64,000 bases of DNA. Source: Carcharhinus amblyrhynchos. Its lineage: Eukaryota. A program made the translations under genes and the position numbers. This document shows positions 3,809 to 56,400 of the stretch, in pieces. The first letter of the stretch is position 1. Every line of letters starts with the position of its first letter. The stretch is taken from positions 43,586,001 to 43,650,000 of the forward strand of contig OZ336878.1 of assembly GCA_965287045.1 (NCBI GenBank), written 5' to 3'. The notes below the pieces were generated by a model. That model saw only the letters and a program-made list of their open reading frames with translations, ran no database searches and had not been told where the DNA came from.

Positions 3809-4664
3809 GTACGTTTGTAGAATGTCCAGTCTTCCAAACATTCTTCAGGGCAATCCCAGGCTTTTGATGTTTCAGGCAAATGAAACGCAAAAAAAGTTGC
3901 ATAGTGGAATTTGTTTTTTTCCCAGATGTGCTGCCTTGAAGTGATTCTGTTCTGTTTCTGTTTCCTCAAGGGGCAGTATTTTATATTAGGTGTGCAGTGA
4001 TGGTACATCTGGAAGCATGCATTTCATTTCCGGAGTGTGTAGGGCAGTGAGGTCTTCACACCTCTGTGATTAGTTACATGCTGAGAGTGTGCAGTCATGA
4101 GAATGGGAGATCTGATGCAGCAGTAGACATAAAAGGTGTCATTACGTCTAAAGGGACACGTATGATTTCAGCGGTGGAGGTTTGCAGCAGGAAACATTAA
4201 ATGAAACAGTTAGAATTTGAAGGCCCTGAGAGTAATGCTGAGCTGGGTGCAGCAAAGGGAATTGGTCATGTTGAGGTCAGGGGGTTCTCTCTTCAGCCAC
4301 TGTTGCTTGGAAAGTGGTATCATGAACAAAAAAGCCATAAATGCAGATGAAGCAAAACTTATTAGTCACCATAGTCAATGCATCCTTTGTGCAATTGCTT
4401 CAAACGTAATGAATGGCATGGCTGCAAAAGACACTTTAACCTCAAAGAACCACATCTTGACTTTGGGTGCATGTTGAACGTTTGGTAATGCCTTTCTCAC
4501 ATAATAGAAACACAGCCACTACTCATGCTTGACACACCTAACGTCCAAGGAAACTGGATCTTCTGGTTCCCAAGTGTTTGAAATAATGACATTTTTGGGC
4601 TGGAAATGCTGGAACTTCATTGAGTGTGTTTCTTACAGCTGGTGAACTGCATGGTACTGTTGCG

Positions 4665-5417
4665 TGGCATATTGTCAGCAGGCGACGGTGCAGAGGGACC
4701 TGGGGGCCCTTGTGCATGAGTCGCAAAAACCCAGCCTACAGGTGCAGCAGGTGGTCAGGAAGGCAAATGGGATGCTGGCCTTCATAGCGAGGGGGATTGA
4801 ATATAAAAGTAGGGAGGTCTTGCTGCAACTGTACAGGGCACTGGTGAGGCCGCAGCTGGAGTACTGTGTGCAGTTTTGGTCACCGCACCTGTGCAAGGAT
4901 ATTTTGGCCTTGGAGGGAGTGCAGAGGAGGTTCACTAGGCTGATACCGGAGTTGAGGGGGTTGAGCTATGAGGAGAGGCTGAATAGACTGGGTTTGTACT
5001 CGTTAGAGTTTAGAAGGATGAGGGGAGATCTCATTGAGACGTATAAGATGATGAATGGGATGGAGAGGGCAGAGGTGGAGAGGTTCTTCCCGCTCAGAAA
5101 GGACAGCAGGACTGGAGGGCACAGCCTCAAGATAAGGGGAGGGACAGTTTAGAACGGAGTTGAGGAGGAACTTCTTCACTCAAAGGGTGGTGAATCTCTG
5201 GAATTCTCTGCCCGTTGAAGTGGTTGAGGCTACCTCGCTAAATATATTTAAGACGCGGGTAGATATGTTTTTGGTAGGCAAGGGGATTAAGGGTTATGGG
5301 GAGAAAGCGGGAAAGTGGAACTGAGCCACAACAGATCAGCCATGATCTTATTGAATGGCGGGGCAGGCTCAAAGGGCTAGATGGCCTACTCCTGCTCCTA
5401 TTTCTTATGTTCTTATG
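4665..5417 (+). mobile_element. CR1 LINE 3' fragment inserted in the 3' LTR
   Basis: ORF2 end QRDLG..LYRALVRPQLEYCVQFWSP..RRMRGDLIETYK; tail 'cctactcctgctcctatttcttatgttcttatg'. Confidence 0.95.
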
Positions 5418-5546
5418 TACTTGACTGCAGTGTAGCAGTAAATATGGCACCCCAGATGTTCCTTCAGATCACAATTAGTTCCAAGCTCTCAAGAATAATA
5501 TATATATTGGAAGAGCATAATATATCCCTTTCTTTCAAAAAATATT

Positions 5547-6635
5547 GGGGGCGATTCTTCCAAAAGTGCTGAATTGGTGGAAAAACTTGTAGATCGCGAC
5601 TGTTTATTCAGCGTAACTTTAGACCTGAATCGGTGCAATGCAGAGGTCACAATCTTGAATCTCATTAAAAATCTGGGGGGGGGGTGGTGGGGTGGTGGTG
5701 GGGGCCTATTCACACTGGAATCTGACAGTTCCGGAACTCTGCGCATGCACAGTGGCCCCGGTCTGTCAGCCTCCCCATTTGCTGGCCAGCTCAATCGCTG
5801 GCCAGCCTGGGACCCCCGCAATGCTGCCCCTCCAGCACCCCCCATGATTCAATTGCAGCCCCCACAACAATTTCCAGGCCAACCCTGACCCTCCCCCCCC
5901 GCCCCCACCCCCCATCAAGCACTCTGATGTCCAGTCCACCCCAGCAGTGGTGATCCCCCCCCGCCCAGGGTCAGAGCCCCTCTGTTCACCACCCCCCCAT
6001 CCCCGGGAGGCAGGCCGCACCAATCACTGTCTTCCTTCCATGCCAGACAGATCCCAATGCAGAGAAGCAGCAGGACCCCACAACCCCACCAATCTCCCCT
6101 AGGCTCCGCCCAGAATAGACCATGCCCCTGACATCCAATGGGCAGTGCCAAGATACCCCCTGGGCATGGGCACTTTGCCCCTTGGGTAGCACCAGGGCCA
6201 CAGGCTGGCACTGCCAGAATGCGCACGCCCAGGGGTACCACCCCCCTGCACCCGACCCCCTGGGGGGGCGCCGACTGCCTCCCCTTCATTCAGGCAGGGT
6301 CTCCTGCTAGTTCCTGAATGTGGGAAGCTACTCTAAAACCCAGCTGGAATGAAGTATTCCTGGCCGGATGGGAGATTCTATCGGGCTCGGCAAGTTCTGT
6401 GCCGGGCCTGATAATCAAATGTAAAATTTATTTAAAATACTTCAAAAAAAGATTAAAATCACTTATCTCTCTTTCCGTCGGTTTCCAGCACGGTCTCGAC
6501 TTCGACTGTTCGATGGCTCTGGGAGATATGCATTCATCATGAAGGCATGTGCAAATCCTGCGAAATGGCTGACACACAATTTTCTATACCGAACCCACCA
6601 GAAAAGTTATGGGTCACAATGGGAGAATCGAGCCC
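5547..6635. mobile_element. GC-rich non-autonomous DNA transposon (PIF/Harbinger-like)
   Basis: Imperfect TIRs 'gggggcgattct'/'agaatcgagccc', 3-bp TSD ATT (5544-5546, 6636-6638), no coding capacity. Confidence 0.6.
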
Positions 6636-6789
6636 ATTGTTTCAGTATCTGATCCAATCATTACCTTTTTTATGCTGTGCCTTGCCTAAAGAAGATTAAT
6701 AATTGATGTTTATAATTAAACTGAACACTTTTAGAGCCTTTGCCATGTTTCCCTTTCTCAAAAACATCAGCCACTGTATTGCTAAAATG

Positions 6790-7603
6790 TTGTGCTGCTG
6801 CTTCTGAGTTAAAGCTGCACACACTGTAGTTGGTCTTTGGCTTCTTGTCAAGCGCTTCTTCATGAATCTGCAGCTTATGTTTCTATTCCAATGCGTGCAT
6901 CTTCCTTCCACTAGTTTTTCAGCTTCCTGCTGTGCCCACTCTGCTTGGCTTCTTACATTTTCGTGTTTCCTCTTTCAAACTCTCCAGCATTTCTTGCAGT
7001 TCGTTATTGGCCTCCAGTAATCATCCTCCCACTGGGATATAGTGTTAAACTGATCTTCACTTCACCAAGTTGCTGTCTGAAGTCAGCACTATTATTCTTT
7101 TCTTCTTAAGTCTCTTCTATTTGAAACACGTGCCGCTGAAGTTTTGAGCTGAGGTCCAGGAGCTCCCTCTTGGATGCCTCCTGTGCTCACAGTGCAGCCA
7201 GCAGTTTCTCTTCAGCATGCTTCCCTGCAGCTTGCCATGTTGGCCAGAATTCTCTGGCCGCTCGTGCCCACCACTGCTGCAAGAGAGGTTGGAGAATTTG
7301 GCGCTGAGCCAAATCCCCATTCACTGCAGCGGAACCAGAGAATTCCGCTGGTATGAATGGTCAGGGAATCACAGCCCTGATGTCTTCCTCAGCCTTCAAC
7401 CTTTCCAGATCAATAATTTTATTCTTTAGTTCTAACTCTTGGAGTGTTGTAACTTTTTGGAAATCTATTTCCTCAGCTCCCTGAACTTTCTGAATTAGCT
7501 TTCTTTCCTTTTCAGTCAAGAGATTTTTGTGTTTTTCAAAATTAGCCCTGAGAGTTTAGCTATCTGGCCTCAACCCATCTATTTAGCTTTGTGTGTTATC
7601 TAT
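6790..7603 (-). pseudogene. CEP83: Intronless CEP83 (CCDC41)-like coiled-coil fragment, disrupted
   Basis: Minus-strand translation across stops and frameshifts: NTQS*IDGLRPDS*TLRANFEKHKNLLTEKERKLIQKVQGAEEIDFQKVTTLQELELKNKIIDLERLKAEED..KHAEEKLLAAL*AQEASKRELLDLSSKLQRHVFQIEET*EEKNNSADFRQQL..NNELQEMLESLKEETRKC-RSQAEWAQQEAEKLVE..KHKL..AKDQLQ..AALTQK. Colinear with recalled CEP83 (IQSELDGLQSD..LVEKDRELIRKVQAAKEE..SQAEKAQLEAEK..KHKL..AKEKLQRAAIAQK). Confidence 0.82.
7242..7377. mobile_element. ~135-bp MITE interrupting the CEP83-like segment
   Basis: Same family as 9822-9955 ('gaattctctggcc..gagaatttg.cgct.agccaaatc.cc.ttcactgc'); removing it rejoins EEDI-TWQ. Confidence 0.65.
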
Positions 7604-7619
7604 CGAAACAATGGAATTT

Positions 7620-8197
7620 TCTTCTTCTTAGGCAGTCCATCAAGGTGGAGGATGATTTGCTTCCATGTTAGAAATGAGTTCTCAGGTCCGATACATGACC
7701 TACAGTCTCTGTCATAGGTTGGGCAGATAGAGATTGGAGAAGAGGGTGGATAGGGTGCCATGTCTTCCTTTTGCATCAACGCTTGGCTTCAGCTTGCTCT
7801 CGGTGATCAAACTCAAGGTGTTCAGCTTCTTCTCAGATGCTTTTCTTCCACTTCACATGGTCTTGGGCCAGGGATTCCCAGGTGCCTGTGGGGATTTTGC
7901 ACTTTTTCAAGGAGGCTTTGAGAGTATCCGTTTCCACTGGCCTCCTGAGACTGGCTGACCGTGTCAAAGCTCTGAGAAGCTTGTTTCGAGAGCCTCCTGT
8001 CAGGCATGTAGAGAATGTGGCCAGCCCAGCAGACCTTGAACGAAGGTGATCAATACTCCAATGCTGGGGATGTTAGCCTGAGCAAGAACACTGACGCTCG
8101 TGTCTGTCCTGCCAGTGGATTTACAGGATCTTGTGGTGGTATCCTCCAAGGTTTTGAGGTACTAGCTTTTGAGCCGTATAGGAGGGCAGACATCACA
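7620..8197 (-). mobile_element. RTE-clade LINE 3' fragment
   Basis: Minus strand VMSALLYGS..IHWQDR..SVLAQANIPSI..CWAGHILYMPDRRLSKQ; (GAA)n-like tail at 7620. Confidence 0.8.
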
Positions 8198-8319
8198 TGC
8201 CATGAATTTATCCAACATGTAGGTCTGTGACTCTGGCAATCACTTTCTTGCTTCTGATTGGAAGATGCTTTTCAATGTGTGTACTGTCTTTGGTCTTAAT
8301 TGCTGCCTCCTTCCTCTGT

Positions 8320-8640
8320 TAATATAAGCTGCCGCTCTTCACAACTGCTCAGTCTCAGGATGACAGGAGCATCTACCTCATTGATGTGGAACATACCGTT
8401 AATGGCTTTTCCTGTGATTTGACTTGTTCCTAGCTGTTGTATTTCAGTTCACTCGTCTGTTGTCAGTACGACATTGCTCGGTTTCAGAGCATCTTTTCTT
8501 GGATAACCATTTTCTTTCAATTTTCAGACAAAATTTTCTGGCATAGATCGAACGGGATGATGTTACTCTATTGTCTGGTATTGATCTTCAGATTGGCGCT
8601 TGTCGACTTGTTTTTCATCTGTCCCCTGATCAGAATGGTT
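8320..8640 (-). pseudogene. Gypsy aspartic protease remnant
   Basis: LKINTRQ*SNIIPFDLCQKI (decayed KIDTGAQxNILP, site at 8574-8582), LKPSNVVLT..IQQLG, PVILRLSSCEERQLI. Confidence 0.7.
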
Positions 8641-8691
8641 GTGTGAATCGCTTTCCTGTGGGAAGTGTCATATCCAGACAATTTATACAAT

Positions 8692-8761
8692 TCGCTCTCT
8701 GCTCTCTTCACAGATGCTGCCACGCCTGCTGAGATTTTCCAGCATTTTCTGTTCTTATTTC
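8692..8761 (+). mobile_element. Penelope-like terminal-repeat fragment (family 2)
   Basis: 'cacagatgctgcc..cctgctgagattttccagcattttctg' shared with 22830-22870 and 59470-59520. Confidence 0.55.
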
Positions 8762-8879
8762 ATGAAATTATACCATTCCTATGTCTACTGTTTTCTCAAA
8801 TTGTCATCATCTTCCAGAGTATGGATGTTTTGCTTTCTTTTCCTTCCCGTTCTACCTGTAGCTCTGACTCTGATGACTC

Positions 8880-9585
8880 ATTTCTCATCTTCGTTCCTTG
8901 TTCTGCACACCTCTAACCAGCATTCAGCCTTGGCACAATCTCTAAAATTTGATCTGTAAGCGTGACATTTTTTTCTGTCTGTGAAAACATGTAGTCACTC
9001 ACGACTCCTGTACATCTTTCTCCCTATTAGGTGTATGTTCCTTTGTGGCTTTTTCATTGCCCCAACCCAGCTGCCTTTCTTTGGCTTAACTGTAGACTAA
9101 CCATTTACATAGTCAGCATTTATGTCTTGACTACTCCTGGTAGTGTGTATATCCTGCAAAATTGTGAGCTTGTGCTTTTTAATCAAATTTTGTTTGTACT
9201 TCAGGATATGCAGAGCCCCACATGAGCTGATCTCTCAGCCTTTCACCTATTCTGTGAAATGTGCATTTCCTGACTGTACTCTTCAATCACTTGAGGGGAT
9301 TCATTTCTTCAGTTCACTCTAGGGGATTTTCACAGTAATTTCATTGAATGTTAATGTAAGCCTATTTGTGATGCTAATAAATAAACGTTAAAACTTTAAC
9401 CTCAATCTTGTTAAATTAAACAAGTTTCTCCTGCCCACAGAAGGATGTAACTGACCCTTTCCTTTCCACTATTGCCTTTTAGAAAGCTGTTAGATGTCAG
9501 TTTGCACTTTTGTTTAAACTTCTCAAATGCCTCCACAACCTCACCAGCTTCCCAAATTCATTTTGGGCTGCAGCTGAACTTTCAT
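8880..9585 (-). pseudogene. Gypsy gag remnant with Zn-knuckle relics
   Basis: MKVQLQPKMN-WEAGEVVEAFEKFKQKCKLTSNSFLKGNSGKERVSYILLWAGE; VRKCTFHRIGERLRDQLMWGSAYPEVQ; KCHAYRSNFRDCAKAECWLEVCR (decayed CPAYGxxCxxCGKxNHWxxVCR); SINE tail inserted at ~9318-9400. Confidence 0.78.
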
Positions 9586-9821
9586 TACTGCAACAGTAGC
9601 TATTTTCTTTTCACACTATTCACTCCGTTTTATTTTCACAATCTCTCTTTGGGCGCTAATTCAGATTGATTTTTCTCAATCTAATTTAACATTTGGAATG
9701 TTTGAGTTCTGGCCGTCCACTGTTGCCATGTTCTGTCGGGGGTTCCCAAGAGTTTGAAACAATCACACTTTCAGATTCAAAATGCTGGAACTTTGTTCCG
9801 TGCGCTCCATACAACACCCTG

Positions 9822-9955
9822 ACCGGAATTCTCTGGCCATTCAGTCCCCACCGCCACTGCCAGACAGGACAGAGAATTTGACGCTCAGCCAAATCTCCCT
9901 TCACTGCGGCGGGATGGGAGAATCCCGCTGACATGAACAGCCAGAGAGTTCCACT
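9822..9955. mobile_element. ~135-bp MITE inserted in the 5' LTR
   Basis: Similar to 7242-7377. Confidence 0.6.
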
Positions 9956-12510
9956 CCTCCCTGTGTTACTGTTGTTCTGATACGTTGTTGCTCAGCCTGT
10001 TTGCAGTGCAGCAGTAAATGTGGCACCCTGGATGTACATTTACATAATAATTCGTTCCCACACTCTGAGAAATAATGTCATAATATAACAGAAACTTTAA
10101 ATGCAGAGTTGAATGGTCCTACCTTCAATCTCATAGGTACAGTGCAGAGAGTAGTTAGAAAGCCAATCCAAATCTTGTGCACACTAGCTGTAAAGCCTCT
10201 TCTCAAGGTTTTCTCTCCAGATAAAATCTCTTTGGCTTAGACAGATCAGGATTCAATGTATGCATTCTTGGTTTGAATGGTTCTGCTCTGCGTGGGCACT
10301 GCATTTGCTCATCGTGCTGTTGAAGAACAATGAAATTGCTTTCTTTGATTGCTGTATTAGAAAGGGAACTATAATCTGAACATTACTGTCTGTGCTAAGC
10401 TCACAGCAGCAGTCTAGTTGGAATGTTATGAAACAACAATTTACTGAGTCTTGATTAGCCCTCATGTCCCATCTGTCCATTTGGTGAACAGTTCAGAATT
10501 ACTGTACGGTGAGTTTTATAGCTTGAGTGCTGTGGTGCTCCAGATGTGTATCACACTGATTAAACTTGTTATTGTTGGCAGATATCCTCAGTAGCCAGTG
10601 AATGCCCCATATTCCAAAGTTAATGCATTACATGTACATTATTATTCCGAGCTTCCACTACTATACTGCTTTGGCTTTGTGCATGAACCTTGCCTAATTG
10701 GTGGAGGGTAAGGGCTAGAAAATCACTGTGTAGGTGAAAATTAATGGGATGTGGCAAATATCGCTTCAAGCTCTGAAAGGCATTTAACCCATTGACAGCC
10801 AGCGATGAGAAAGGAGCGCCAAACAAAAATGAATTGAAAGACAACCCGATATGCAGACATGGAACAAACCCTTGCAAGTAAATGAGAGAGACGAGAATCT
10901 CACCCATGTTTCATGGGCAGCAACGTGGCTTTGTGTGCTGCTTGTTAAGGATGTGTATGTATACGTGCTTAGTGGTATTCACTCCACAAGAAAGCACAGC
11001 AGGAAGGAATTTGGGTGAATAGGGGTGAGAGACAGTGGTAGCGTTGAAGCAATGAGAAATTAGCAATGCTGCTTCCAGATGTCCCAGATGTCAATGTGTG
11101 AGCAGCAAAGGTTCTGCGTTTCCTAAATCTGCAATTTAATGGCCATAGTGGTGGCCCTTTCCATTGACTGAAAAGTCAGTAGAAACACCGCCAGGGCCAT
11201 TTCCATCAACCTGACAGGATTAAATGTCTATCAAGCAGTCAGCCACCTGTCATCAGCTTTCCCAGGCATTTGATGGTTGGCAACTCGTCAAAGCCAGCTT
11301 TATCACCAGCAGCAATGGCCCCATTAGGATTGCTAGAGGCTGCAACCAGCGATGGAAGCCCGTGGAGAGAGAGTGGGGTGGGATCGCCGGGGCCAGTCAG
11401 GGGGCTGCGTGTGGGGGCTTTGCCAAAGGATGCCTGATTTGGAAGCTTCCGCCCACCCCCCGACCAACTCCTCAGCCCACAGGGAGGCCGTCAGGGTGGA
11501 CTGGCTACCATTCCACGTAGTGAGTCCCACCCCTCCTGTTGGCTAAACACCAGATGCAGTGGGATTAGCTTCTAGTGATCTTTAACTGTTTAGTTGACCT
11601 ATGAGTGGGAAGGCCACACTCTAACCTTCTTGCCCCTTACTTAATTGGTGTGAATTGGGATGACACCAGGTTCCCAGCTCATACTTTCCCACCCAATTAT
11701 ACATTTCCCCCCTTGCCCGTCACCATGTCCTAGTCTCCCACCAGAGTAGGGGAGGGGGAGGGGATTGGGCATTCGCTTCCACCTCACATTTGCAAAGGAA
11801 AGCTTTGATCACAGATCACATTCCATACATTCATGCTCAGATCCTCCAGCACCACCTAGAGCCATCTTATGCTGGACTCCCATTCATTGTCACCTATCGT
11901 AAATAAGCTCTTAAAACAATTTTAAAATAAACTTGTCGTGGAAGAATGACTTGATTTGGCAACTGTTGCTGCTTTGTAGTTGTCCTTTGTTGCTGATATG
12001 TGACACCTGAGCTAATAGAAATGATGCACAAGTGATGCTGCAGTCCAGCACCCAAAAGGTCTTGTTTTGTGGCTGGTGAAATGGGTGCAGAGATGCATGC
12101 AGATGGTGCAAGCAGAATTGCCCTGGATGGCACTCACACTGTCCCCATAAAAGTGCAATGCAACATGCCTAACATGAGCATGGATCATTCACTGTAACAG
12201 CTGACTGACTTTCACAACATCTGGCAATGTTGCATAACACAAGGTGATCTCAGCAGAGAGTAGGCACACACAGCATCTGAGAAATAGCATTCAGAAAACT
12301 GCAATCCCGCTGCAGAAAAGCTGAGACTGCTGTATACACCTGGATGAATAACAGATGTAATATTGACTATCATCGTTGATTTGTATATGAATTGGTTGGG
12401 TGATTTTACTTATGATCTCTTTGTGGGATCTATATGGCTCTTTTACCTCTTATGACCAACAGGTGAGGATTCTATACCTTTTATTAAAGCAATGTTGAAA
12501 TTTTGTACAG

Positions 12511-28785: not shown

Positions 28786-28863
28786 CCTGTGCTAACCAAT
28801 GTGCTACCAGGTCCCGCTAACCTTGCACCTCCTTAGAATCATACCAATTGGATTATTCTGCCT

Positions 28864-30887
28864 TTCAGGCAGGGAGGAAGTGGTCGCGCGAGGGAACCGT
28901 GGTGTACTAAGGAAGTTGAATCTCTGGTGAAGAGGAAGAAGGAGGTTTATGTAAAGATGAGACATGAAGGCTCAGTTAGGGCACTGGAGAGTTATAAATT
29001 AGCCAGGAAGGAGCTAAAGAGAGAGTTAAGAAGAGCTAGAAGAGGACATGAGAAGACTTTGGTGGATAGGATCAAGGAAAATCCTAAAGCTTTCTACAGG
29101 TATGTCAAGAATAAAAGATTGGTTAGGGCAAGATTAGGGCCAGTCAGAGACAGCAGTGGGAAGTTGTGCGTGGAGCCTGAAGAGATAGGAGAGGCACTGA
29201 ATGAGTATTTTTTGTCAGTATTTACGCAGGAAAAAGTCAGTGTAGTCGAGGAGAATACTGCAATACCAGGTAGTAGACTAGACGGGATTGAGGTACATAA
29301 GGAGGAGGTGTTGGCAATTTTTAAGAGTGTGAAAATAGATAAGTCACCTGGGCCGGATGGGATTTACCCTAGGATTCTCTGGGAGGCTAGGGAGGAGATT
29401 GCAGAGCCTTTGGCTTTGATCTTCATGTCATCGTTGGTTTCAGGTATAGTGCTGGAAGACTGGAGGATAGCAAATGTTGTCCCCTTGTTCAAGAAGGGGA
29501 GTAGAGATCATCCTGGGAATTATAGACCAGTGAGCCTTACTTCTGTTGTGGGCAAAGTTTTGGAAAGAATTATAAGGGATAGGATTTATAATCATCTAGA
29601 GGGAAATAAGTTGATTAGGGTTAGTCAACATGGTTTTGTGAAGGGTAGGTCATGCCTCACAAACCTTATCAAGTTTTTTGAAAAGGTGACCAAAGAGGTG
29701 GATAAGGCAGTTGATGTGGTGTATATGAATTTTAGCGAAGCGTTTGATAAGGTTCCCCATGGTTGGCTATTGCAGAAAATGCAGATGCATGGGATTGAGG
29801 GTGATTTAGCAGTTTGGATCAGGAATTGGCTAGCTGATAGAAGACAGAGGGTGGTGGTTGATGGGAAATATTCAACCTGGAGTTCAGTTACAAGTGGTGT
29901 ACCTCAAGGATCTGTTTTGGGGCCACTGCTGTTTGTCATTTTTATAAATGGCCTAGATGAGGGTGTAGAAGGATAGATTAGTAAATTTGCTGACGACACC
30001 AAAGTTGGAGGAGTTGTAGACAATGAGGATGGATGTTACAGTTTGCAGAGGGACATAGATAAGCTGCAGAGTTGGGCCAAGAGGTGGCAGATGGAGTTTA
30101 ATACGGAAAAGTGTGAGGTGATTCACTTTCGTAAGAATAACAGGAGTACAGAATATAGGGCTAATGGAAGGACTCTTAGTAGTGTTGACGAGCAGAGAGA
30201 TCTCGGGGTCCATGTGCATAGCTCCCTGAAAGTTGACACCCAGATTGATAAGGTTGTTAAGAAGGCGTATGGTGTGTTAGCTGTTATTGGTAGAGGGATT
30301 GAATTTCGGAGCTGTGAGGTCATGTTACAACTGTACAAAACTCTGGTGCGGTCGCACTTGGAGTATTGCGTACAGTTCTGGTCGCTGCATTATAAGAAAG
30401 ATGTGGAGGCATTGGAAAGGGTGCAGACGAGGTTTACCAGGATGTTGCCTGGTATGGTGGGAAGGTCTTGTGAGGAACGGCTGAGGGACTTGAGGTTATT
30501 TTCATTGGAGAGAAGAAGGTTACGAGGTGACCTGATTGAGGCATACAAGATGATCAAAGGATTGGATAGGGTGGACAGTGAGAGCCTTTTACCTCGGATG
30601 GTGATGGCTAACACAAGGGGACATAGCTTTAAATTAAGGGGTGGTAATTATAGGATGGATGTCAGAGATAGGTTCTTTACTCAGAGAGTAGTAAGGTTAT
30701 GGAATGCCCTGCCTGCAGCAGTTGTGGACTCGCCAACTTTAAGGGCGTTCAAATGGTCAGTGGATAGGCATATGGATAACATTGGAATAGTTTAGGTTAG
30801 AGGGGCATTAGATTGGTTCCACTGGTCGGCGCAACATCGAGGGCCGAAGGGCCTGTACTGCACTGTTATGTTCTATGTTCTGTGTTC
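28864..30887 (+). mobile_element. CR1 LINE (HER1-like), 5'-truncated, RT region
   Basis: ORFs 28927-29976 and 30043-30795 separated by an in-frame TAG: [34 protein letters not shown]; (TTCTATG)n tail. Confidence 0.97.
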
Positions 30888-37770: not shown

Positions 37771-39404
37771 AGTTAACTTTCAGAAGCAAGTACAACATAA
37801 AACAGTGAACCATAACAGAATAATAGCTTAATTCGAGGCAAGCCCAGTGTGCACTTTAATCAGTAGTATTCTTTTATTTGTCAATGGCACTGCTAGTTCT
37901 TCTCCTTCAGCTGCAGGGGGAAGCAAATTATTAATCACAATTTAACTCAGATAGGAGTTACTCTGGTCCTTAAGCTACGAGGCATTTATCAATTTGTTGA
38001 CAATTATTCTTTCTGTTCAGTATTTTCAGTAAAATCACAGACGTATTCTAAAGGAATGAGTTTGTGACTTTATTTAAGATAATGACCATACCTTTACAAG
38101 TGTAATTATGATGTTGCTACACATTACAAAGGCAATTCTTACCCATTTGTGCCATTTCAGTGCAGACATCAGATGCTTGTGGCTGGAATTCTTCCCACTC
38201 CTCTTACATTCTCATCTTAATTACTATTAGCATAAAATGATAACCAAGTTTGGCTACAATGTTGTACTGGATATCCATTGCTGTTGATGATACAGCACAT
38301 ATCAACAACACTTCAGAGAAACTGACAATGAAACTATAGCATGTATAAAAATATTACTTCTCAACACAACTGAATGCTTTGTTGTGTGACCAATACGAGT
38401 TGTACATTAGTTCCTTATGTCTTGTTAAATGCAAATTAATCTCATGGAAATCAACTGCAATTAATTCTCCCTAAGACCTCAAAACTGTGAAACTCCTTTC
38501 TGCCTTCAGCTATCACAATCTTCTCTATTTTCAAGTTGAGGAACCTATTATCTAATTACTTCAGTGAATAAAATTAGCAACTTGCATCAATAATACATTT
38601 TTATATCAATTTTGCTTTTAATTTGCTTCCAAATTGTGAGTTGTAGAAGTCTTTAAAAATCAACATTGGTCCCAAATATGTTATACTTTTTAAAATTCCC
38701 ACACATCATGTAATGTAATTTCAAAACAACAAGAAGATCAGCTTAGCCTACTCAGAAGAACTTCTGTACGTTTTATTAAGAACCTTTTATGCAGTTGCAT
38801 ATCTAAGAATATTATTATATAGTGATTTTTAAAAATGTTACACAGAAATTTATGCCGCATAAGGAAAGACCTGCAAGATTTTTGATTAAAAGGCTGTTCT
38901 ATGAAGAATTTACAAATAATGATTTAGATTACATGAGTGATAACATGGTAAACAATGGAATATGTGTTGGTTCAATTGTTGTTCCACAAAGTAACTAAAT
39001 TTTCATTGATAAATGCAGATAATACAGTGGCAGCCTCGGGTGATGGCTCTAGCCTTTGTGTCGTAAATACGATTGTTTCAATCATGTTCAAGAAAATATG
39101 AATTTTTATGTCATGAATTATTATGAAATGTTCTGCGAGATCCAACATGTATCAAAATATATTAAACAATTTAAATGCCAAAAATAACTTTGTTTGGCTT
39201 TACTTAGTCTTTGGTTAAGCACATCTAATTTGAAAACTAGAAGAGAATGAACGCATAGGCCATAGTTAAAGAGGTTAATGGTATGTTGAACCTATTGTTT
39301 ATATTGGATAAATTGCCCTTTTATATTGTGGAAAATAATCCAAAACAAGTTGCATGTCATTTTGCTTCTGCAATCCTCCATCCATTCAAAATCCATTGGC
39401 CCAG

Positions 39405-41600
39405 CAGGACACAGGATTTACCCTAGGATTCTCTGGGAGGCAAGAGAGGCGATTGCAGAGCCTCTGGCTCTGATCTTCAGGTCGTCGTTGGCCACAGGTG
39501 TAGTGCCAGAAGACTGGAGGATAGCGAATGTTGTCCCATTGTTTAAGAAGGGGAACAGAGACTTCCCCAGGAATTATAGACCAGTGAGTCTTACTTCTGT
39601 TGTGGGCAAGGTTTTAGAAAAAATTATTAGGGATAGGATTTATAGTTATTTAGAGAGTAATGAATTGATTGGAGATAGTCAGCATGGTTTTGTGGAGGGT
39701 AGGTCGTGCCTTACTAACCTTATTGAGTTTTTTGAGAAAGTGACCAAAGAGGTGGATGGGGGTAAGGCAGTTGACGTGGTATATATGGACTTTAGTAAGG
39801 CGTTTGATAAGGTTCACCATGGAAGGCTTCTGCAGAAAATGCAGATGTATGGGATTGAGGGTGATTTAGGTAATTGGATCAGGAATTGGCTAGCGGATAG
39901 GAGACAGAGGGTGGTGGTTGATGGTAAGTATTCGTCATGGAGTTCAGTTACTAGCGGTGTGCCTCAAGGATCTGTTTTGGGGCCACTGCTGTTTGTAATT
40001 TTTATAAATGATCTGGATGAGGGTATAGTTGGGTGGATTAGTAAATTTGCTGATGACATCAAAGTCGGAGGTGTGGTAGATAGTGAGGAAGGGTGTCATA
40101 GTTTACAGAGAGACTTGGACAAGTTGCAGAGCTGGGCCGAGAGGTGGAGGATGGAGTTTAATGCGGAGAAGTGTGAGGTAATGCACTTTGGCAGAAATAA
40201 CAGATGTGTAGAGTATAGGGCTAACGGTAGGACTCTGAATAGTGTGGATGAACAGAGGGATCTAGGTGTATGTGTACATAGATCCCTGAAAGTTGGGAAT
40301 CAAGTAGATAAGGTTGTTAGGAAAGCATACAGTGTCTTGGCGTTTATTGGTAGGGGGATTGAATTTAGGAGCCGCAGCGTCATGTTGCAACTGTACAAAA
40401 CTCTGGTGCGGCCGCACTTGGAGCATTGTGTGTAGTTCTGGTCCCCACATTATAGGAAGGATGTGGAGGCTTTGGAGAGGATGCAGAGGAGGTTTACGAG
40501 GATGTTGCCTGGTATGGAGGGGAGGTCCTATGAGGAGAGACTGAGGGATTTGGGGTTGTTTTCATTAGAAAGAAGGTGGCTAAGGGGGGACCTTATTGAA
40601 ACATATAAGATGATTAGAGGTTTAGATAGGGTGGACAGTGATAGCCTTTTTCCTTGGATGGAGAAAGCTAGCACGAGGGGGCATAGCTTTAAATTAAGGG
40701 GTGGTAGTTATAGGACGGATGTCAGAGGTAGGTTCTTTACCCGGAGGGTGGTGAGGGATTGGAATGCCCTGCCTGCTGCAGTTGTAAATGTGCCTAGTTT
40801 GGGGGCGTTTAAGAGATCCGTGGATAGGTTTATGGATGGAAAGAACATAAGAACATAAGAAATAGGAGCAGGAGTAGGCCATCTAGCCCTTCGAGCCTGC
40901 CCCGCCATTCAATAAGATCATGGCTGATCTGTCGTGGCTCAGTTCCACTTTCCCGCCCTCTCCCCATAACCCTTAATCCCTTCTCTTATCAAAAACCCAT
41001 CAACCCGCTTCTTAAAAATATTTAGCGAGGCAGCCTCCACCACTTCAACGGGCAGAGAATTCCAGAGATTCACCACCCTTTGAGTGAAGAAGTTCCTCCT
41101 CAACTCCGTTCTAAACCGCCTCCCCTTTATCTTGAGGCTGTGCCCCCTAGTCCTACTGTCTTTTTTGAGCGGGAAGAGTCTCTCCACCTCCATCCTATCC
41201 ATCCCATTCATCATCTTATACGTCTCAATGAGATCTCCCCTCATTCTTCTAAACTCTAACGAGTACAAGCCTAGTTTATTCAGCCTCTCCTCATAGCTCA
41301 ATCCCCTCAGCTCCGGTATCAGCCTAGTAAACCTCCTCTGCACTCCCTCCAGGGCCAAAATATCCTTGCGCAGGTGCGGCGCCCAAAACTGCACACAGTA
41401 CTCCAGCTGCGGCCTCACCAATGCCCTATACAGCTGCAGCAAGACCTCCCTACTTTTATATTCAATCCCCCTCGCTATGAAGGCCAGCATGTAGATGCTT
41501 AAAGGGATTGGTTTAGGTTAGCAGGTCATTGCTTTTTAATTGGTCGGCGCAACATCGTGGGCCGAAGGGCCTGTTCTGCACTGTAATGTTCTATGTTCTA
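39405..41600 (+). mobile_element. CR1 LINE (HER1-like), interrupted by an antisense CR1
   Basis: RT ORFs 39326-40435 and 40463-40858; its tail 'ggccgaagggcctgttctgcactgtaatgttctatgttcta' resumes at 41491-41600. Confidence 0.95.
40842..41490 (-). mobile_element. Young CR1 3' fragment nested in the previous element
   Basis: Open ORF 40939-41490(-); closely similar to 4665-5417 and 44951-45215. Confidence 0.95.
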
Positions 41601-47269: not shown

Positions 47270-48690
47270 TCCATTTCCAAAGACTGAGTGCTATAACTGC
47301 AAGAAGAAGAATCATTGAAGGCATGTTGAAAAAATATAAACAAAGAAAACTCTGACTGGATGGGATGGCAGTCACTGCATATGGTGTTAATCAACAGCAG
47401 GTCAATGTGGGGTCAATGAGAAAATCCCCATAATCTCCATGTACTGGTTCCAGTTGCACACAATTATCAATGTGTAAAATTGTCCATCATTGTCATGAAG
47501 GGTGAAAACCCAGCATAGCTAACAAGAGATACAAGTAAAACTGGAATGAGATGTTTCACATAGAAGCAAAGTTTACAATGTAGGACAATGTAATTGCCAA
47601 GTCTTGAGTGTCACCAGTAAACCTTCAAAGATGCAAAGCCAATGTACAGCTTCAAAGGAGCATTAGACCCATTTACTGCAGGCCCCATCCAGTACCTATT
47701 GCTCTAAGGTAAAAAGTAGAGGCAAGAGCTGAAAAAACTTGAGACTAAGAACACAATCTCTGAAGTAGAACAGTGTAATTGAACTACTCCCATCATAGTA
47801 GTATCAAAGCTGGATGGTAGTGTAAGATTATGCTGATATTATAAGGAATGTACTGAAACGTAATCAACCCGCTACTTTGCCAGCTGTGAAGCATCTGTTC
47901 ACAATCTTGCTGGGAGGCCAAATTTGTTCAAAATTAGATCTAATAAATATTGACCTGCAACCTGAATCGGACCATGAATCTAAGTCTTATTTGACCATTA
48001 ATATACACTTGGATCTGTTTCAGTTTCATAATTTAAGCTTAAGTTTATTTTTTAGTGCCAACAGTAGGCTTACATTTACACTGCAACAAAGTTACTGTGA
48101 AAATCGCCTAGTTGCCACACTCCATGTCTGTTTGGGTACATTGAGGGAAAATTTAGCATAGCTAATGCACCTAACCAGCACATCTTTCAGACTGTGCCAG
48201 GAAACTGGAGCACCTGGAGGAAATAGACTGCCATTGGTGTTTCTTCAGCCCTAAGAATTTTTCAAGGAGTAATGAAGCAGATTTTGCAAGGAATTCAGGG
48301 AGTAGTGTTCTCTTTGAAAGAAGTAATTTTTTCAGCTCTAAACAGGCAGACCCATAACAGGCTGAAAAAGGTGCTCCAATGCTTGGAAAAGCATCGAGTT
48401 TTGGCAAAAGCACAAATGATTCAAAATGCTATAGAGTATTTGGGTCACAGGGCAGACAAAGATGGATTACATTCTACCAGGACTAAGGTTCAAGCAATAA
48501 GAAAAGCACTGCACACTCAGAATATTTCTAAGCTTGGATATTTTTGGGCTTCTACAGTAAGTTTATACCAAATGTGCAATCGTATTGCATCCATTGAATG
48601 GGCTCTTGAGGGAGTTCCATGGAATTGGACAAGTGAGTGTAACAAGGCATTCCAGTTGTGTGAAACCAAATTAGTAGGTTATTCCTCTTG
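47270..48690 (+). mobile_element. Degenerate Gypsy gag-pol fragment with inserted SINE (~48035-48225)
   Basis: CYNCKKKNH Zn knuckle; RT-like PHPVPIALR*KVE, TPIIVVSKLDGSVRLC, CSKLDL, MKQILQGIQGV, IEYLGH. Confidence 0.8.
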
Positions 48691-50394
48691 ATAAAGATTT
48701 AACAGCCCATAACTTGTTTCTGAACTCATATTTGTAAACACATACAGAAGGAGTTCAAGATCTGAGTAATGAGATGAATGAGAAACAAAATCTCTACTGC
48801 CTTTCAACTGCTCTTGCTCACACATATACTCAAATCTACTTTTTGATAACTATTTGCTCTTACTGAGTCAAGAGACCACAGCACGTTTCCAAGGGTCCAA
48901 ATCCTAATTTCGGTTGATGTTCAGATCTGCCAGTTAAGTATACAATAAAGTTGCATGTTTTTTTATATGTTCCGGGGATGTGGGCGTTACTGGCTGGGCC
49001 AGCATTTATCACCCATCACTGAGGAGATTTAAGAGTCAACTATATTGCAGTAGATCTGGAGTCACATTTAGACCAGACAAATCTCCTCCCCTTGAGGACA
49101 ACTCGCTCGCCATGGCCCACTGCGATTCCATGGCAGGCAAGGTGAATATCGCAGGATATTCAGATAGGATTTACAACAATCAACAATGGATTCATGGCCA
49201 TCATTAGACTTTTAATTCCAGATTTTGTTATTGAATTCAGATTTCACCATCTGCCATGGTGGGATTCAAACCTGGGTGTCCAGAGCATTGCCCTGGGTCT
49301 CTAGATTATTAGTCCAATGGTAAAACCACAATGCCACTGCCTTATTTTAGCTCTGCCAATCAAGTAGATAATTAAGATGGTACCAGGACACTGCCCAATG
49401 CATTCTTGATGCCGTCACTTCCTCTGCACACTTTTAGTGACTTTAAGGCCTCCCACTGCAGGCGATCTGGAGCCTCATTTATATCTTTCAGACTCCACTG
49501 TGATTTTAAGTGCTGATTGAGACAGTGATGACAAGTGCTGGAGCCAAATGTGAAAGTTTGCAGAGAGCAGAATTGTGATTAGAGTGATAAATTGATATGT
49601 TTTAAATTCTTTTAAGATTAATTATAGTTTAAAAGGAGTAAGAGTAATCTTTCAGGCCCCAGAAGGAAACTTTAAGAGTTCCCTGCTCATGTCTCCCAAA
49701 CCGTGATTGTGCCTTTTACCATTGGTCTTAGTATCAGGATCTTTTAACTTGGGATCCCTGATAGCCTCCTGCTATCCAAAATCCCAATCCTACACCCACA
49801 GGCCTTCTCATCAGTTACTGGATACTGGTTTTTTGAATGGTTTTAAGACTTCTGAAGTTCACAATGAAGGAAACTGGACACCCACCTCAACCATTACATG
49901 TCACGCTTAAATCCCTGAATTAAAATCTAATCTGTGGAAATAAGTCTGGAGTGGAAACAGGAAATCTAGAATAATGGAAGAAATAGAAAAGTTGCCATGA
50001 CCTTTCTTGTATGATGGCAGCCAAGTTTCCCCATCCCTGTTTCTCTACCTACTTCTGTTAATGTGATCAAATCGAGAAATGTGCCTTCCTTATATTGCTT
50101 AGAAGTCAGCAATGATTCTTATATTTTGACATGTAGGGCAAGATTTTACAGCCTTCCTCAAGTGAGGAGATTTCCATTGCCGAAACCTCGTCCGCTGTGA
50201 TTCTATGGCAGGCCAGATGGTGGAGTTCTGGCGGTATAATTCAGCAATATCACAGGATATTCAACTCATTGGAAACATTTGCAATCAATTATGCATGTAA
50301 ATGATACAATTTACTTCATGTTCAATTGTAATTTTTCATTTAATCCCTGTAAGTCAAATCAGGACTTAATTCAGGCCATAAGACAGGGCTTGAA

Positions 50395-54949: not shown

Positions 54950-56400
54950 TCTTTGTCTCTTCGCTAGACACGGATGAGGTCCCAGAGGATTGGAGGATAG
55001 CAAATGAGGTTCTGTAATTTAAGAAGGGTAGCAAGGATAACCTGAGTAATTATAGGCCGGTGAGCTTGACATCCGTGGTAGGGAAATTGTTGGAGAGGAT
55101 TATTAGAGATAGGGATATATGCACCTTTAGAACTGAATAATCTCATTAGCAATAGACAGCATGGTTTTGTACGAGGGAAGTCATGCCTCACAAATTTGGT
55201 GGAGTTTTTTGAGGAGGTGACAAAAACGACTGACAAGGGAAGGATGGATGTCATCTATATAGATTTCTGTAAAGCAGTTGATAAGGTCCCTCATGGCAGG
55301 CTGATGCAAAAGGTTAAATCTCACGGGATAAAAGGAGAGCTCGCTAGATGGGTGGAGAACTGGCTTGGTCATAGAAGACAGACGGTAGCAGTGGAGGGGT
55401 CTTTTTCCGGCTGGAGGTCTGTGACTAGCGGTGTTCTACAGGGCTCTGTACTGGGACCTCTGTTGTTTGTGATATATATAAATGATTTGGAAGAAGATGT
55501 AAATGGTGTGATCAGTAAGTTTGCAGATGACACAAAGATGGGTGGACTTGTGGATAGTGATGAACATTGTCAGAGAATACAGCAGGATATAGATAGGTTG
55601 GAAAATTGGGCCGAGAAATGGCAGATGGAATTTAATCTAGATAAATGCGAAGTGATGCATTTTGGTAGAACTAATGTCGGGGGGAGCTATACAATAAATG
55701 GCAGAACCATCAGGAGTATAGACACACAGAGGGACCTGGGTGTGCAAGTCCACAGATCCTTAAAGGTGGCATCACAGGTGGAGAAGGTGGTGAAGAAGGC
55801 ATATGGCATGCTTGCCTTTATAGGACAGGGCATAGAGTTTAAAAGTTCGCATATGATGTTTCAGCTATACAGAACGTTGGTTAGGCCACATTTGGAATAC
55901 TGCATTCAGTTGCCACACTACCAGAAGGATGTGGAGGCTTTGGATAGAGTACAGAAAAGGTTTACCAGGATGTTGCCTGGTCTTAGCTATGAGGAGAGAT
56001 TGGGTAAACTGGGGTTTTTCTCCCTGGAAAGGGGGATGAGGGGTGGCCTAATAGAGGTGTATAAAATTATGAAGGGCATAGATAGGGTGAACAGTGGGAA
56101 GCTTTTTCCCAGGCTGGAGGTGATGAACACAAGGGGTCACAAGTTCAAGGTTAAGGGGGCAAGGTTCAACACAGATGTCAGAGGGACGTATTTTATACAG
56201 AGGGTGGTGGGGGCCTGGAATGCACTGCCAAGCAAGGTGGCTGAGGCGGATGCACTGGGATCGTTTAAAGACTTATCTAGATAGCCACATGAACAGACTG
56301 GGAATAGAGGGATACAAACAAATGGTCCAGTTGGGCTCATGAGCGGCACAGGCTTGGAGTGCCGAAGGGCCTGTTCCTGTGCTGTATTGTACTTTGTTCA
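54950..56400 (+). mobile_element. CR1 LINE, 5'-truncated
   Basis: VPEDWRIAN; ORF 55196-56284 with [14 protein letters not shown]; CR1 tail at 56360-56400. Confidence 0.95.

What the first reader, a model, noticed from the sequence alone, without database searches (positions are those of the whole stretch)
4555..10090. Gypsy LTR element whose pol is replaced by a captured, intronless CEP83-like segment
Seen in sequence: a 5.5-kb unit bounded by TG..CA and a perfect 5-bp TSD (GAAAC at 4550-4554 and 10091-10095). Two ~220-bp degenerate direct repeats appear once nested insertions are removed (4555-4664 plus 5419-5524, versus 9729-9821 plus 9956-10090; roughly 70% identical by eye). A TGG-starting PBS-like site follows the 5' LTR and a PPT precedes the 3' LTR. 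On the minus strand the order is gag, Zn knuckles, protease, then ~225 codons colinear with the C-terminal coiled coil of CEP83, with no RT, RNaseH or integrase. Established: LTR elements can capture spliced host mRNA by template switching, and CEP83 is the centriolar distal-appendage protein needed for ciliogenesis. Inference: this is a non-autonomous, gene-capturing LTR element that was mobilised in trans. I know of no description of such a family. The ORF track misses it because of decay and six nested insertions.
Basis: partly seen in the sequence, partly recalled or inferred. Interest (0 to 1): 0.92.

Follow-up and report, generated by a model that had tools for sequence, protein, structure and literature searches.

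The report
Shark retrotransposon family carrying captured CEP83
This is one long-dead copy of a shark jumping-gene family that swapped its own copying enzymes for a spliced middle piece of the centriole gene CEP83, joined in reading frame at both ends, and then spread that cargo to at least 70 places in the genome.

Summary
Confirmed and extended. Window 4555-10090 is a decayed Ty3/Gypsy element: LTRs 70% alike, tRNA-Leu primer site, polypurine tract, 5-bp TSD, gag, protease, seven nested insertions. Its RT, RNase H and integrase are replaced by host CEP83 mRNA (about aa 333-565 of 691), crossing five splice junctions of the host gene on C19, with no poly(A). At least 71 loci carry this same segment with the same two switch points, so one capture was amplified in trans; pol-bearing relatives with the same LTR exist. 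Both switch points show microhomology and keep the pol reading frame, as does a later internal deletion. All 56 copies tested are broken and decay neutrally. The capture predates the lamniform-carcharhiniform split, probably about 200 million years ago (rate assumed). The mechanism is known (LTR-mediated retroposition); no CEP83 case was found in the literature searches. The scan noted the same kind of family with SUDS3 in rays, on other DNA. Best reading: passive cargo of a successful non-autonomous element. A working Gag-protease-CEP83 fusion is not excluded and not shown.

The parts
4550..4554 (.). target-site duplication, copy beside the 3' LTR (GAAAC)
   Evidence: identical to 10091-10095
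4555..4672 (-). 3' LTR, downstream part; ends CA, 3 nt shorter than in most family copies
   Evidence: LTR profile hit E 2e-22 (the profile includes this LTR)
4673..5418 (+). nested young LINE 3' fragment (CR1-like, label recalled), 94-95% identical to its best matches elsewhere
5419..5524 (-). 3' LTR, upstream part
5525..5537 (-). polypurine tract directly before the 3' LTR
   Evidence: a like tract precedes the 3' LTR in most of the 18 other copies printed
5541..6636 (.). nested 1.1-kb repeat with terminal inverted repeats (MITE-like, label from its shape)
   Evidence: hits in 6 loci, including the unrelated C19 stretch
6637..6793 (-). element 3' untranslated region and the last ~11 codons of integrase (approximate borders)
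   Evidence: the same sequence follows integrase in pol-bearing relatives
6794..7240 (-). captured CEP83 mRNA, downstream part (host exons at C19:4489825-4496870, joined without introns)
7241..7378 (.). nested 138-bp MITE-like repeat, same family as 9822-9955
7379..7603 (-). captured CEP83 mRNA, upstream part; starts 29 nt before the end of host exon C19:4487174-4487288
7604..7621 (-). 5' switch point: last codons of the RT stub joined in frame to CEP83
7622..8203 (-). nested LINE 3' fragment (RTE-like, label recalled) with an 8-nt duplication; later than the capture
   Evidence: 39 other matches among 40 scored, 69-76% identity
8204..8310 (-). protease-RT spacer with an internal deletion of about 60 codons, then the start of RT
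   Evidence: read by eye against P0121 and P0138
8311..8660 (-). aspartic protease, decayed
8690..8762 (.). nested SINE-like fragment
8890..8991 (-). nucleocapsid Cys/His knuckle region, decayed
9185..9566 (-). gag capsid region, decayed, interrupted by a SINE-like fragment at about 9319-9400
9719..9728 (-). primer-binding site for tRNA-Leu (AAG/TAG); 3 nt lost in this copy
9729..9821 (-). 5' LTR, downstream part
9822..9955 (.). nested 134-bp MITE-like repeat
9956..10090 (-). 5' LTR, upstream part; begins TG at the family's start position
10091..10095 (.). target-site duplication, copy beside the 5' LTR (GAAAC)

Best explanation
In an early shark germ line, a spliced CEP83 mRNA was packaged with the RNA of a single-ORF Gypsy element. 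During minus-strand synthesis the reverse transcriptase left the element about 11 codons before the integrase stop, copied about 690 nt of CEP83 across five splice junctions, and returned to the element just inside the start of RT, each time at a short shared word. The product kept both LTRs, the tRNA-Leu primer site, the polypurine tract, gag and protease. It was copied again by RT and integrase from autonomous relatives, in one short burst, to roughly 80-150 places; one sub-lineage also lost about 60 codons before RT. CEP83 was a passenger. The kept frame is chance or reflects a general need for an uninterrupted ORF, not a use of the CEP83 peptide. Every copy has since decayed neutrally. Shown: anatomy, single capture, junctions, frame, copy spread, neutral decay. 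Inferred: the template-switch steps, supply in trans, the age, and that the cargo was passive.
For: Intronless against the host gene, five junctions crossed in the window; 58 of 58 loci cross at least one junction and 46 cross three or more. Among the 64 candidates scored with full-length CEP83, non-host hits cluster at aa ~330-566; the few ragged ends beyond that are not matched at DNA level. Switch points are shared and map onto pol-bearing relatives, with 5 shared nt plus a nearby 10-nt block at the 5' side and 4 nt at the 3' side. 60 of 71 loci have a same-strand LTR or gag/protease hit; poly(A) in 0 of 42. Copies form one star-like clade (support 98; 94/92). Departure from the commonest state is 0.159 at fourfold and 0.163 at zerofold sites; 0 of 56 copies are unbroken. 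Host differs from the commonest state at 12 of 74 fourfold sites, about the same as the copies' own decay, so little time passed between capture and burst. Published precedent: PMC5131818 (passages).
Against: Three of three junctions keep the frame: 5' switch in 22 of 30 copies, 3' switch in 21 of 25, and the spacer deletion in 7 of the 14 copies read by eye, the commonest single length (read-through in L085). The automated spacing count for that deletion was not clean (41 nt in 3 copies, 42 nt in 2, other lengths in 3). One in 27 by chance if the junctions are independent. The longer 10-nt shared block would have given an out-of-frame join and was not the one used. Of 226 codons tallied, only one non-arginine codon differs between the commonest state and all elasmobranch proteins; the other eight are arginine codons, read as CpG decay. 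That fits a short stem but also purifying selection.
Confidence: 0.75

Rival explanations
1. The fusion was used. The element made a Gag-protease-CEP83 polyprotein, and the coiled coil helped it spread, for example by tethering particles at centrioles or basal bodies of germ cells, or by oligomerising.
For: All three junctions keep the frame up to the element's own stop. Almost no amino-acid change on the stem. High copy number. Captured genes under purifying selection are known in crocodilian ERVs (PMC4299795, passages).
Against: No selection signal among copies. Rare variants fit a neutral star model; the 20-35% class has a small excess (21 synonymous against 13 +/- 3 simulated). Changes shared by the four closest pairs are 41 non-synonymous or stop to 23 synonymous, close to the ratio of about 2 that chance sharing gives. 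No sites separate the two sub-lineages (13 against 7 copies). The fragment lacks both ends of CEP83, and truncated CEP83 mutants failed to reach the centrosome (review PMC8621283, passages). The family also has plain internal-deletion copies without cargo, and only 1 of 12 gag-picked loci carries CEP83.
Confidence: 0.12
2. The frame was selected only for RNA stability or for translation of the element's own Gag and protease (no early stop); the identity of the cargo is irrelevant.
For: Frame kept at the capture junctions and at the later deletion; gag through protease reads in one frame in L085.
Against: Not testable on decayed single copies; frames of the cargo-free deletion copies were not measured.
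Confidence: 0.25
3. A LINE-made processed pseudogene of CEP83 landed in a Gypsy element, or the copies arose by DNA duplication.
For: A LINE fragment lies next to the CEP83 piece in the window. The window copy and L031 on the same contig share a long branch (support 100).
Against: The piece replaces pol rather than interrupting it. It ends in mid coding sequence without poly(A) in 0 of 42 copies. The LINE fragment is absent from other copies. Window and L031 flanks do not align beyond repeats. Loci lie on more than 20 contigs.
Confidence: 0.02

Closest known systems
LTR-mediated retrocopies of metazoans (Tan et al. 2016, PMC5131818; passages read)
   Same: Part of the element's ORF replaced by spliced host mRNA, microsimilarity at the switch points, no poly(A) or own TSD, and re-copying as a non-autonomous element.
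   Different: Those cases are young and have one to a few insertions. Here there are at least 71 loci, 15-20% decayed, with both junctions in the element's pol frame.
Maize Bs1 and human FAM8A1 in HERV-K (as cited in PMC5131818)
   Same: Host exons captured inside an LTR element; Bs1 has 1-5 copies with the same switch points.
   Different: Far fewer copies; other hosts and element classes.
CrocERV29 with KIT-ligand and CrocERV31 with nectin3 (PMC4299795; passages read)
   Same: Old vertebrate LTR lineages that amplified a captured mRNA (9 and 6 copies).
   Different: Those are retroviral, keep pol, and their cargo ORFs are intact and under purifying selection. Here it is a Gypsy element, pol is lost, and the cargo decays neutrally.
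K02A2.6-like single-ORF Gypsy elements of amphioxus and acorn worm (P0138, P0122, P0121)
   Same: Best full-length matches to the gag profile; same gag, knuckle, protease and RT start.
   Different: The amphioxus proteins carry RT, RNase H and integrase, and none carries host cargo of this kind.
SUDS3-carrying Gypsy families in rays
   Same: Reported as pol replaced by spliced host mRNA and amplified to over a hundred copies in a cartilaginous fish.
   Different: Other gene and other genomes; a Pfam Sds3 search of this genome gave one match. Whether it is the same Gypsy lineage was not tested.

Membership tests
Ty3/Gypsy LTR retrotransposon | Direct LTRs with TG...CA ends and a 4-6 bp TSD | tested here: met
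   70.3% LTR identity, far above shuffles; perfect 5-bp TSD in the window. No clear TSD could be read in the 13 other LTR pairs printed; most had poorly defined starts.
Ty3/Gypsy LTR retrotransposon | tRNA primer-binding site and polypurine tract | tested here: met
   10-nt match to host tRNA-Leu 3' end in L043, 7-9 of 10 in seven other copies, 3 nt lost in the window; tract before the 3' LTR.
Ty3/Gypsy LTR retrotransposon | gag and protease of Gypsy type | tested here: met
   Profile of 8 copies finds gag proteins and polyproteins with Retrotrans_gag, RVT_1, RNase H and integrase domains; these hit the window. Direct Pfam scan of the window: nothing.
Ty3/Gypsy LTR retrotransposon | Order protease-RT-RNase H-integrase | tested here: met
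   In pol-bearing relatives with the same LTR and in P0138/P0122. In the window only the RT start and integrase end remain, in that order.
Ty3/Gypsy LTR retrotransposon | Placement in an RT phylogeny (named clade) | not tested
   No RT tree was built.
Autonomous element | Own RT, RNase H and integrase | tested here: not met
   No such hit inside the window unit. 5 of 58 CEP83 loci had an RT-range hit in the stretch fetched; those inspected were on the other strand or alignment overhang.
LTR-mediated retrocopy | Introns lost against the parent gene | tested here: met
   Five junctions crossed; host exons have canonical GT-AG borders.
LTR-mediated retrocopy | Cargo replaces element ORF, with microsimilarity at the switch points | tested here: met
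   The longest shared word near the 5' switch (9 nt in a 25-nt window) was reached by 1 of 32 other host windows, so the excess over chance is modest.
LTR-mediated retrocopy | Co-transcription from the LTR | not testable with these tools
   No RNA run holding the stretch was listed, which is no evidence either way.
LINE-made processed pseudogene | Poly(A) tail and own TSD | tested here: not met
   0 of 42 copies with an A-run of 8 or more after the segment.
Functional retrogene | Intact frame under purifying selection | tested here: not met
   0 of 56 copies unbroken; equal decay at fourfold and zerofold sites. 15 further loci were not scored.

The most novel reading that the evidence does not exclude
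A Gypsy lineage of early sharks gave up its pol for an in-frame centriolar coiled coil and used the Gag-protease-CEP83 product to tie its particles to germ-cell centrioles or basal bodies, gaining transmission. Together with the SUDS3 families noted in rays, cartilaginous fishes would hold a class of cargo-bearing non-autonomous Gypsy elements selected for their host-derived peptides.
Probability: 0.12. Interest if true: 0.85.

Novelty: new member of a known kind. Interest (0 to 1): 0.5.

Why it matters
It shows that a single template-switch capture can be amplified to about a hundred copies in a vertebrate, well beyond the few copies in the published cases read here. It explains a cloud of apparent CEP83 pseudogenes as one event, which matters for retrocopy counts in sharks. 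The copies jointly preserve an early-shark state of a ciliopathy gene, and their insertions can serve as phylogenetic markers. The kept frame at every junction gives a concrete test of whether such cargo is ever more than a passenger.

Tried and rejected
Pfam on the window's gag, protease and CEP83 frames: nothing significant; on 8 other copies the best hit was a weak Gag_p24_C, E 0.0026, in L032. Protein search with the window's own 63-aa CEP83 frame: none; identification came through the host exon. tRNA scan of the window: none. TSDs in 13 other LTR pairs could not be read. Segmental duplication linking the window and L031: flanks do not align. Sub-lineage-specific CEP83 sites: none at p<0.005. 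Exact tree placement unresolved: grouping with carcharhiniforms only just rejected (AU p 0.045), grouping with rays not rejected (p 0.23), placement outside all elasmobranch genes not rejected (p 0.16). SUDS3 cargo in this genome: one match. No RNA holder listed. One paper on CEP83 domain mapping was not held. Literature searches: CEP83 + retrotransposon + LTR gave 2 papers, unrelated by title and abstract; CEP83 + pseudogene + shark gave 0; searches listed no such family. Repbase and Dfam were not available, and no supplements were read; the retrocopy tables of PMC13320880 (passages only) may list these loci.
Full report
Observation. The window is G000:C9:43586001-43650000 of a 2.9-Gb shark genome; its CEP83 is closest to Mustelus, 97% over the span compared. 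GAAAC flanks the unit at 4550-4554 and 10091-10095. With nested insertions cut out, the two LTRs align at 149 of 212 positions, K2P 0.38, score 184.5 against a shuffle maximum of 76. The 5' LTR starts exactly where other copies' 3' LTRs start after the polypurine tract. The 3' LTR ends 3 nt short of the family end; a small terminal deletion explains this better than a chance TSD (inference). The family's primer site matches host tRNA-Leu over 10 nt.

Retroelement part. Pfam sees nothing in the window's own frames. A profile of the gag piece from 8 other copies found 96 proteins at E up to 0.001. Of 19 scanned, several are gag proteins or polyproteins with RT, RNase H and integrase in Gypsy order, named K02A2.6-like or hypothetical in amphioxus, acorn worm and an electric ray. 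These hit the window at 9566-8311 in the order gag, knuckle, protease, and no RT core, RNase H or integrase hit lies inside the unit. Decayed pol-bearing relatives exist in the genome and share the LTR; all matches but two short ones had stops inside.

Captured part. A host exon on C19 found 112 proteins, nearly all named CEP83, and catshark CEP83 maps along C19:4457649-4518033. The window segment matches six host exons, crossing five junctions with the introns absent. It covers about aa 333-565 of 691.

Family. Of 82 loci examined, 71 carry the segment: 58 of 69 and 13 of 13. 70 were picked by CEP83 similarity and 1 came from 12 picked by gag. All matches lie within positions 87-783 of the spliced host stretch. 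60 of 71 have a same-strand LTR or gag/protease hit in the stretch fetched, and 0 of 42 show poly(A). In an independent search 28 of 39 non-host hits were already known (counted by eye), which suggests about 80 copies as a low estimate. The locus itself is real and shared: contigs from four other organisms bridge the 5' LTR-flank junction at about 94-99% identity.

Junctions. Copies share both switch points. In pol-bearing relatives the 5' point lies about 15 codons into RT, with 5 nt shared with CEP83 and a 10-nt shared block 9 nt further into the host sequence; the 3' point lies about 11 codons before the integrase stop, with 4 nt shared. The excess of similarity is modest: 1 of 32 other host windows did as well. 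The 5' join keeps the pol frame in 22 of 30 copies and the 3' join in 21 of 25; single copies L100 and L085 read through the 5' join in one frame. A sub-lineage that includes the window has also lost about 60 codons before RT. That join is in frame in 7 of 14 copies read by eye, though the automated count was not clean. The 10-nt block would have given an out-of-frame join. It may have served as a docking site behind the DNA end, a known mode of strand transfer (recalled).

Seven later insertions lie at 4673-5418, 5541-6636, 7241-7378, 7622-8203, 8690-8762, about 9319-9400 and 9822-9955. Each is a repeat found elsewhere. For five, most other copies show the flanks adjacent; for 5541-6636 and 9319-9400 that test gave no usable pair. 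Their class names are recalled or taken from their shape.

Age and selection. Eight other LTR pairs give K2P 0.34-0.49. At an assumed 0.8-1 x 10^-9 per site per year (recalled, not measured) the window copy is about 190-240 million years old. The copies form one star-like clade outside the lamniform-carcharhiniform group and outside rays (Stegostoma and Carcharodon left out for gaps; 24 and 12 of 56 copies used). They keep ancestral residues where galeomorphs changed and share some shark-specific ones. The exact position is unresolved, and projecting copies on the host frame may pull them toward the host. Decay is neutral: 0.159 at fourfold against 0.163 at zerofold sites, and 0 of 56 copies are unbroken. 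Rare variants fit a neutral star simulation, with a small excess at 20-35% frequency. Host and copies' commonest state differ at 12 of 74 fourfold sites, about equal to the copies' own decay, so the burst followed the capture quickly. That leaves little branch length on which selection could show.

Mechanism. Two template switches during minus-strand synthesis made a non-autonomous element that kept all cis signals, gag and protease. Autonomous relatives supplied RT and integrase. The cargo was most likely passive (0.75). Selection for an unbroken ORF alone is possible (0.25, overlapping with the first), and a used CEP83 peptide is less likely (0.12). Truncated CEP83 mutants failed to reach the centrosome in patient studies (PMC8621283, passages), which weakens the tethering idea but does not test this fragment.

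Comparison. It works like, and meets the tested features of, the LTR-mediated retrocopies of Tan et al. 2016 (PMC5131818, passages), which include secondary re-copying. Crocodilian ERVs with KIT-ligand and nectin3 are the nearest vertebrate precedent for amplified cargo (PMC4299795, passages). No CEP83 case appeared; repeat libraries and supplements were not seen. Earlier notes of this scan describe SUDS3-carrying Gypsy families in rays and a KMT2D capture in a shark; none mentions CEP83.

Verdict. Real, and correctly read by the first stage. A new, old and unusually numerous member of a known kind, with one unexplained feature: the frame is kept at every junction. Interest 0.5.

Noticed in passing
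L085:4998-6590 (G000:C6:100066498-100068090): The first ~140 nt of the CEP83 segment occur twice, 97% alike, on both sides of gag-protease: a recent local duplication. Gag through protease reads in one frame here, with stops.
   Followed up: partly
window 6790-7600 and L031:3424-4054: The window copy and L031, 2.3 Mb apart on C9, share 19 derived changes in 395 sites (median pair 1.2%) but not their flanks: a later re-copying or gene conversion. L044/L099 and L103/L117 are similar pairs.
   Followed up: partly
L126, L134, L135, L076: Same Gypsy family with plain internal deletions, gag or protease joined to the integrase end, and no CEP83; the lineage made many non-autonomous forms.
   Followed up: no
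L116:3500-5800, L107:1160-3200, L096:2986-3566, L122:1409-1810: CEP83 segment next to Gypsy gag, pol or LTR on the opposite strand: inversions or nested insertions of the same family.
   Followed up: no
window 47726-48691: Weak RT-like remains of another LTR element on the plus strand (E about 0.003-0.01; ORF).
   Followed up: no
window 28837-30795, 39290-41517, 55082-56284: Long LINE reverse-transcriptase-like frames (CR1-like, label recalled); no host gene was evident among ORFs of 130 aa or more.
   Followed up: no
G000:C39:823942-10980659: About 45 near-identical tRNA-Leu-type 3' ends spread over an 11-Mb contig: a large tRNA gene cluster (two confirmed as tRNA-Leu).
   Followed up: partly
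P0010, P0014: CEP83 is named '-like' in basking shark and sawshark records; whether extra copies in those genomes are the reason was not checked.
   Followed up: no
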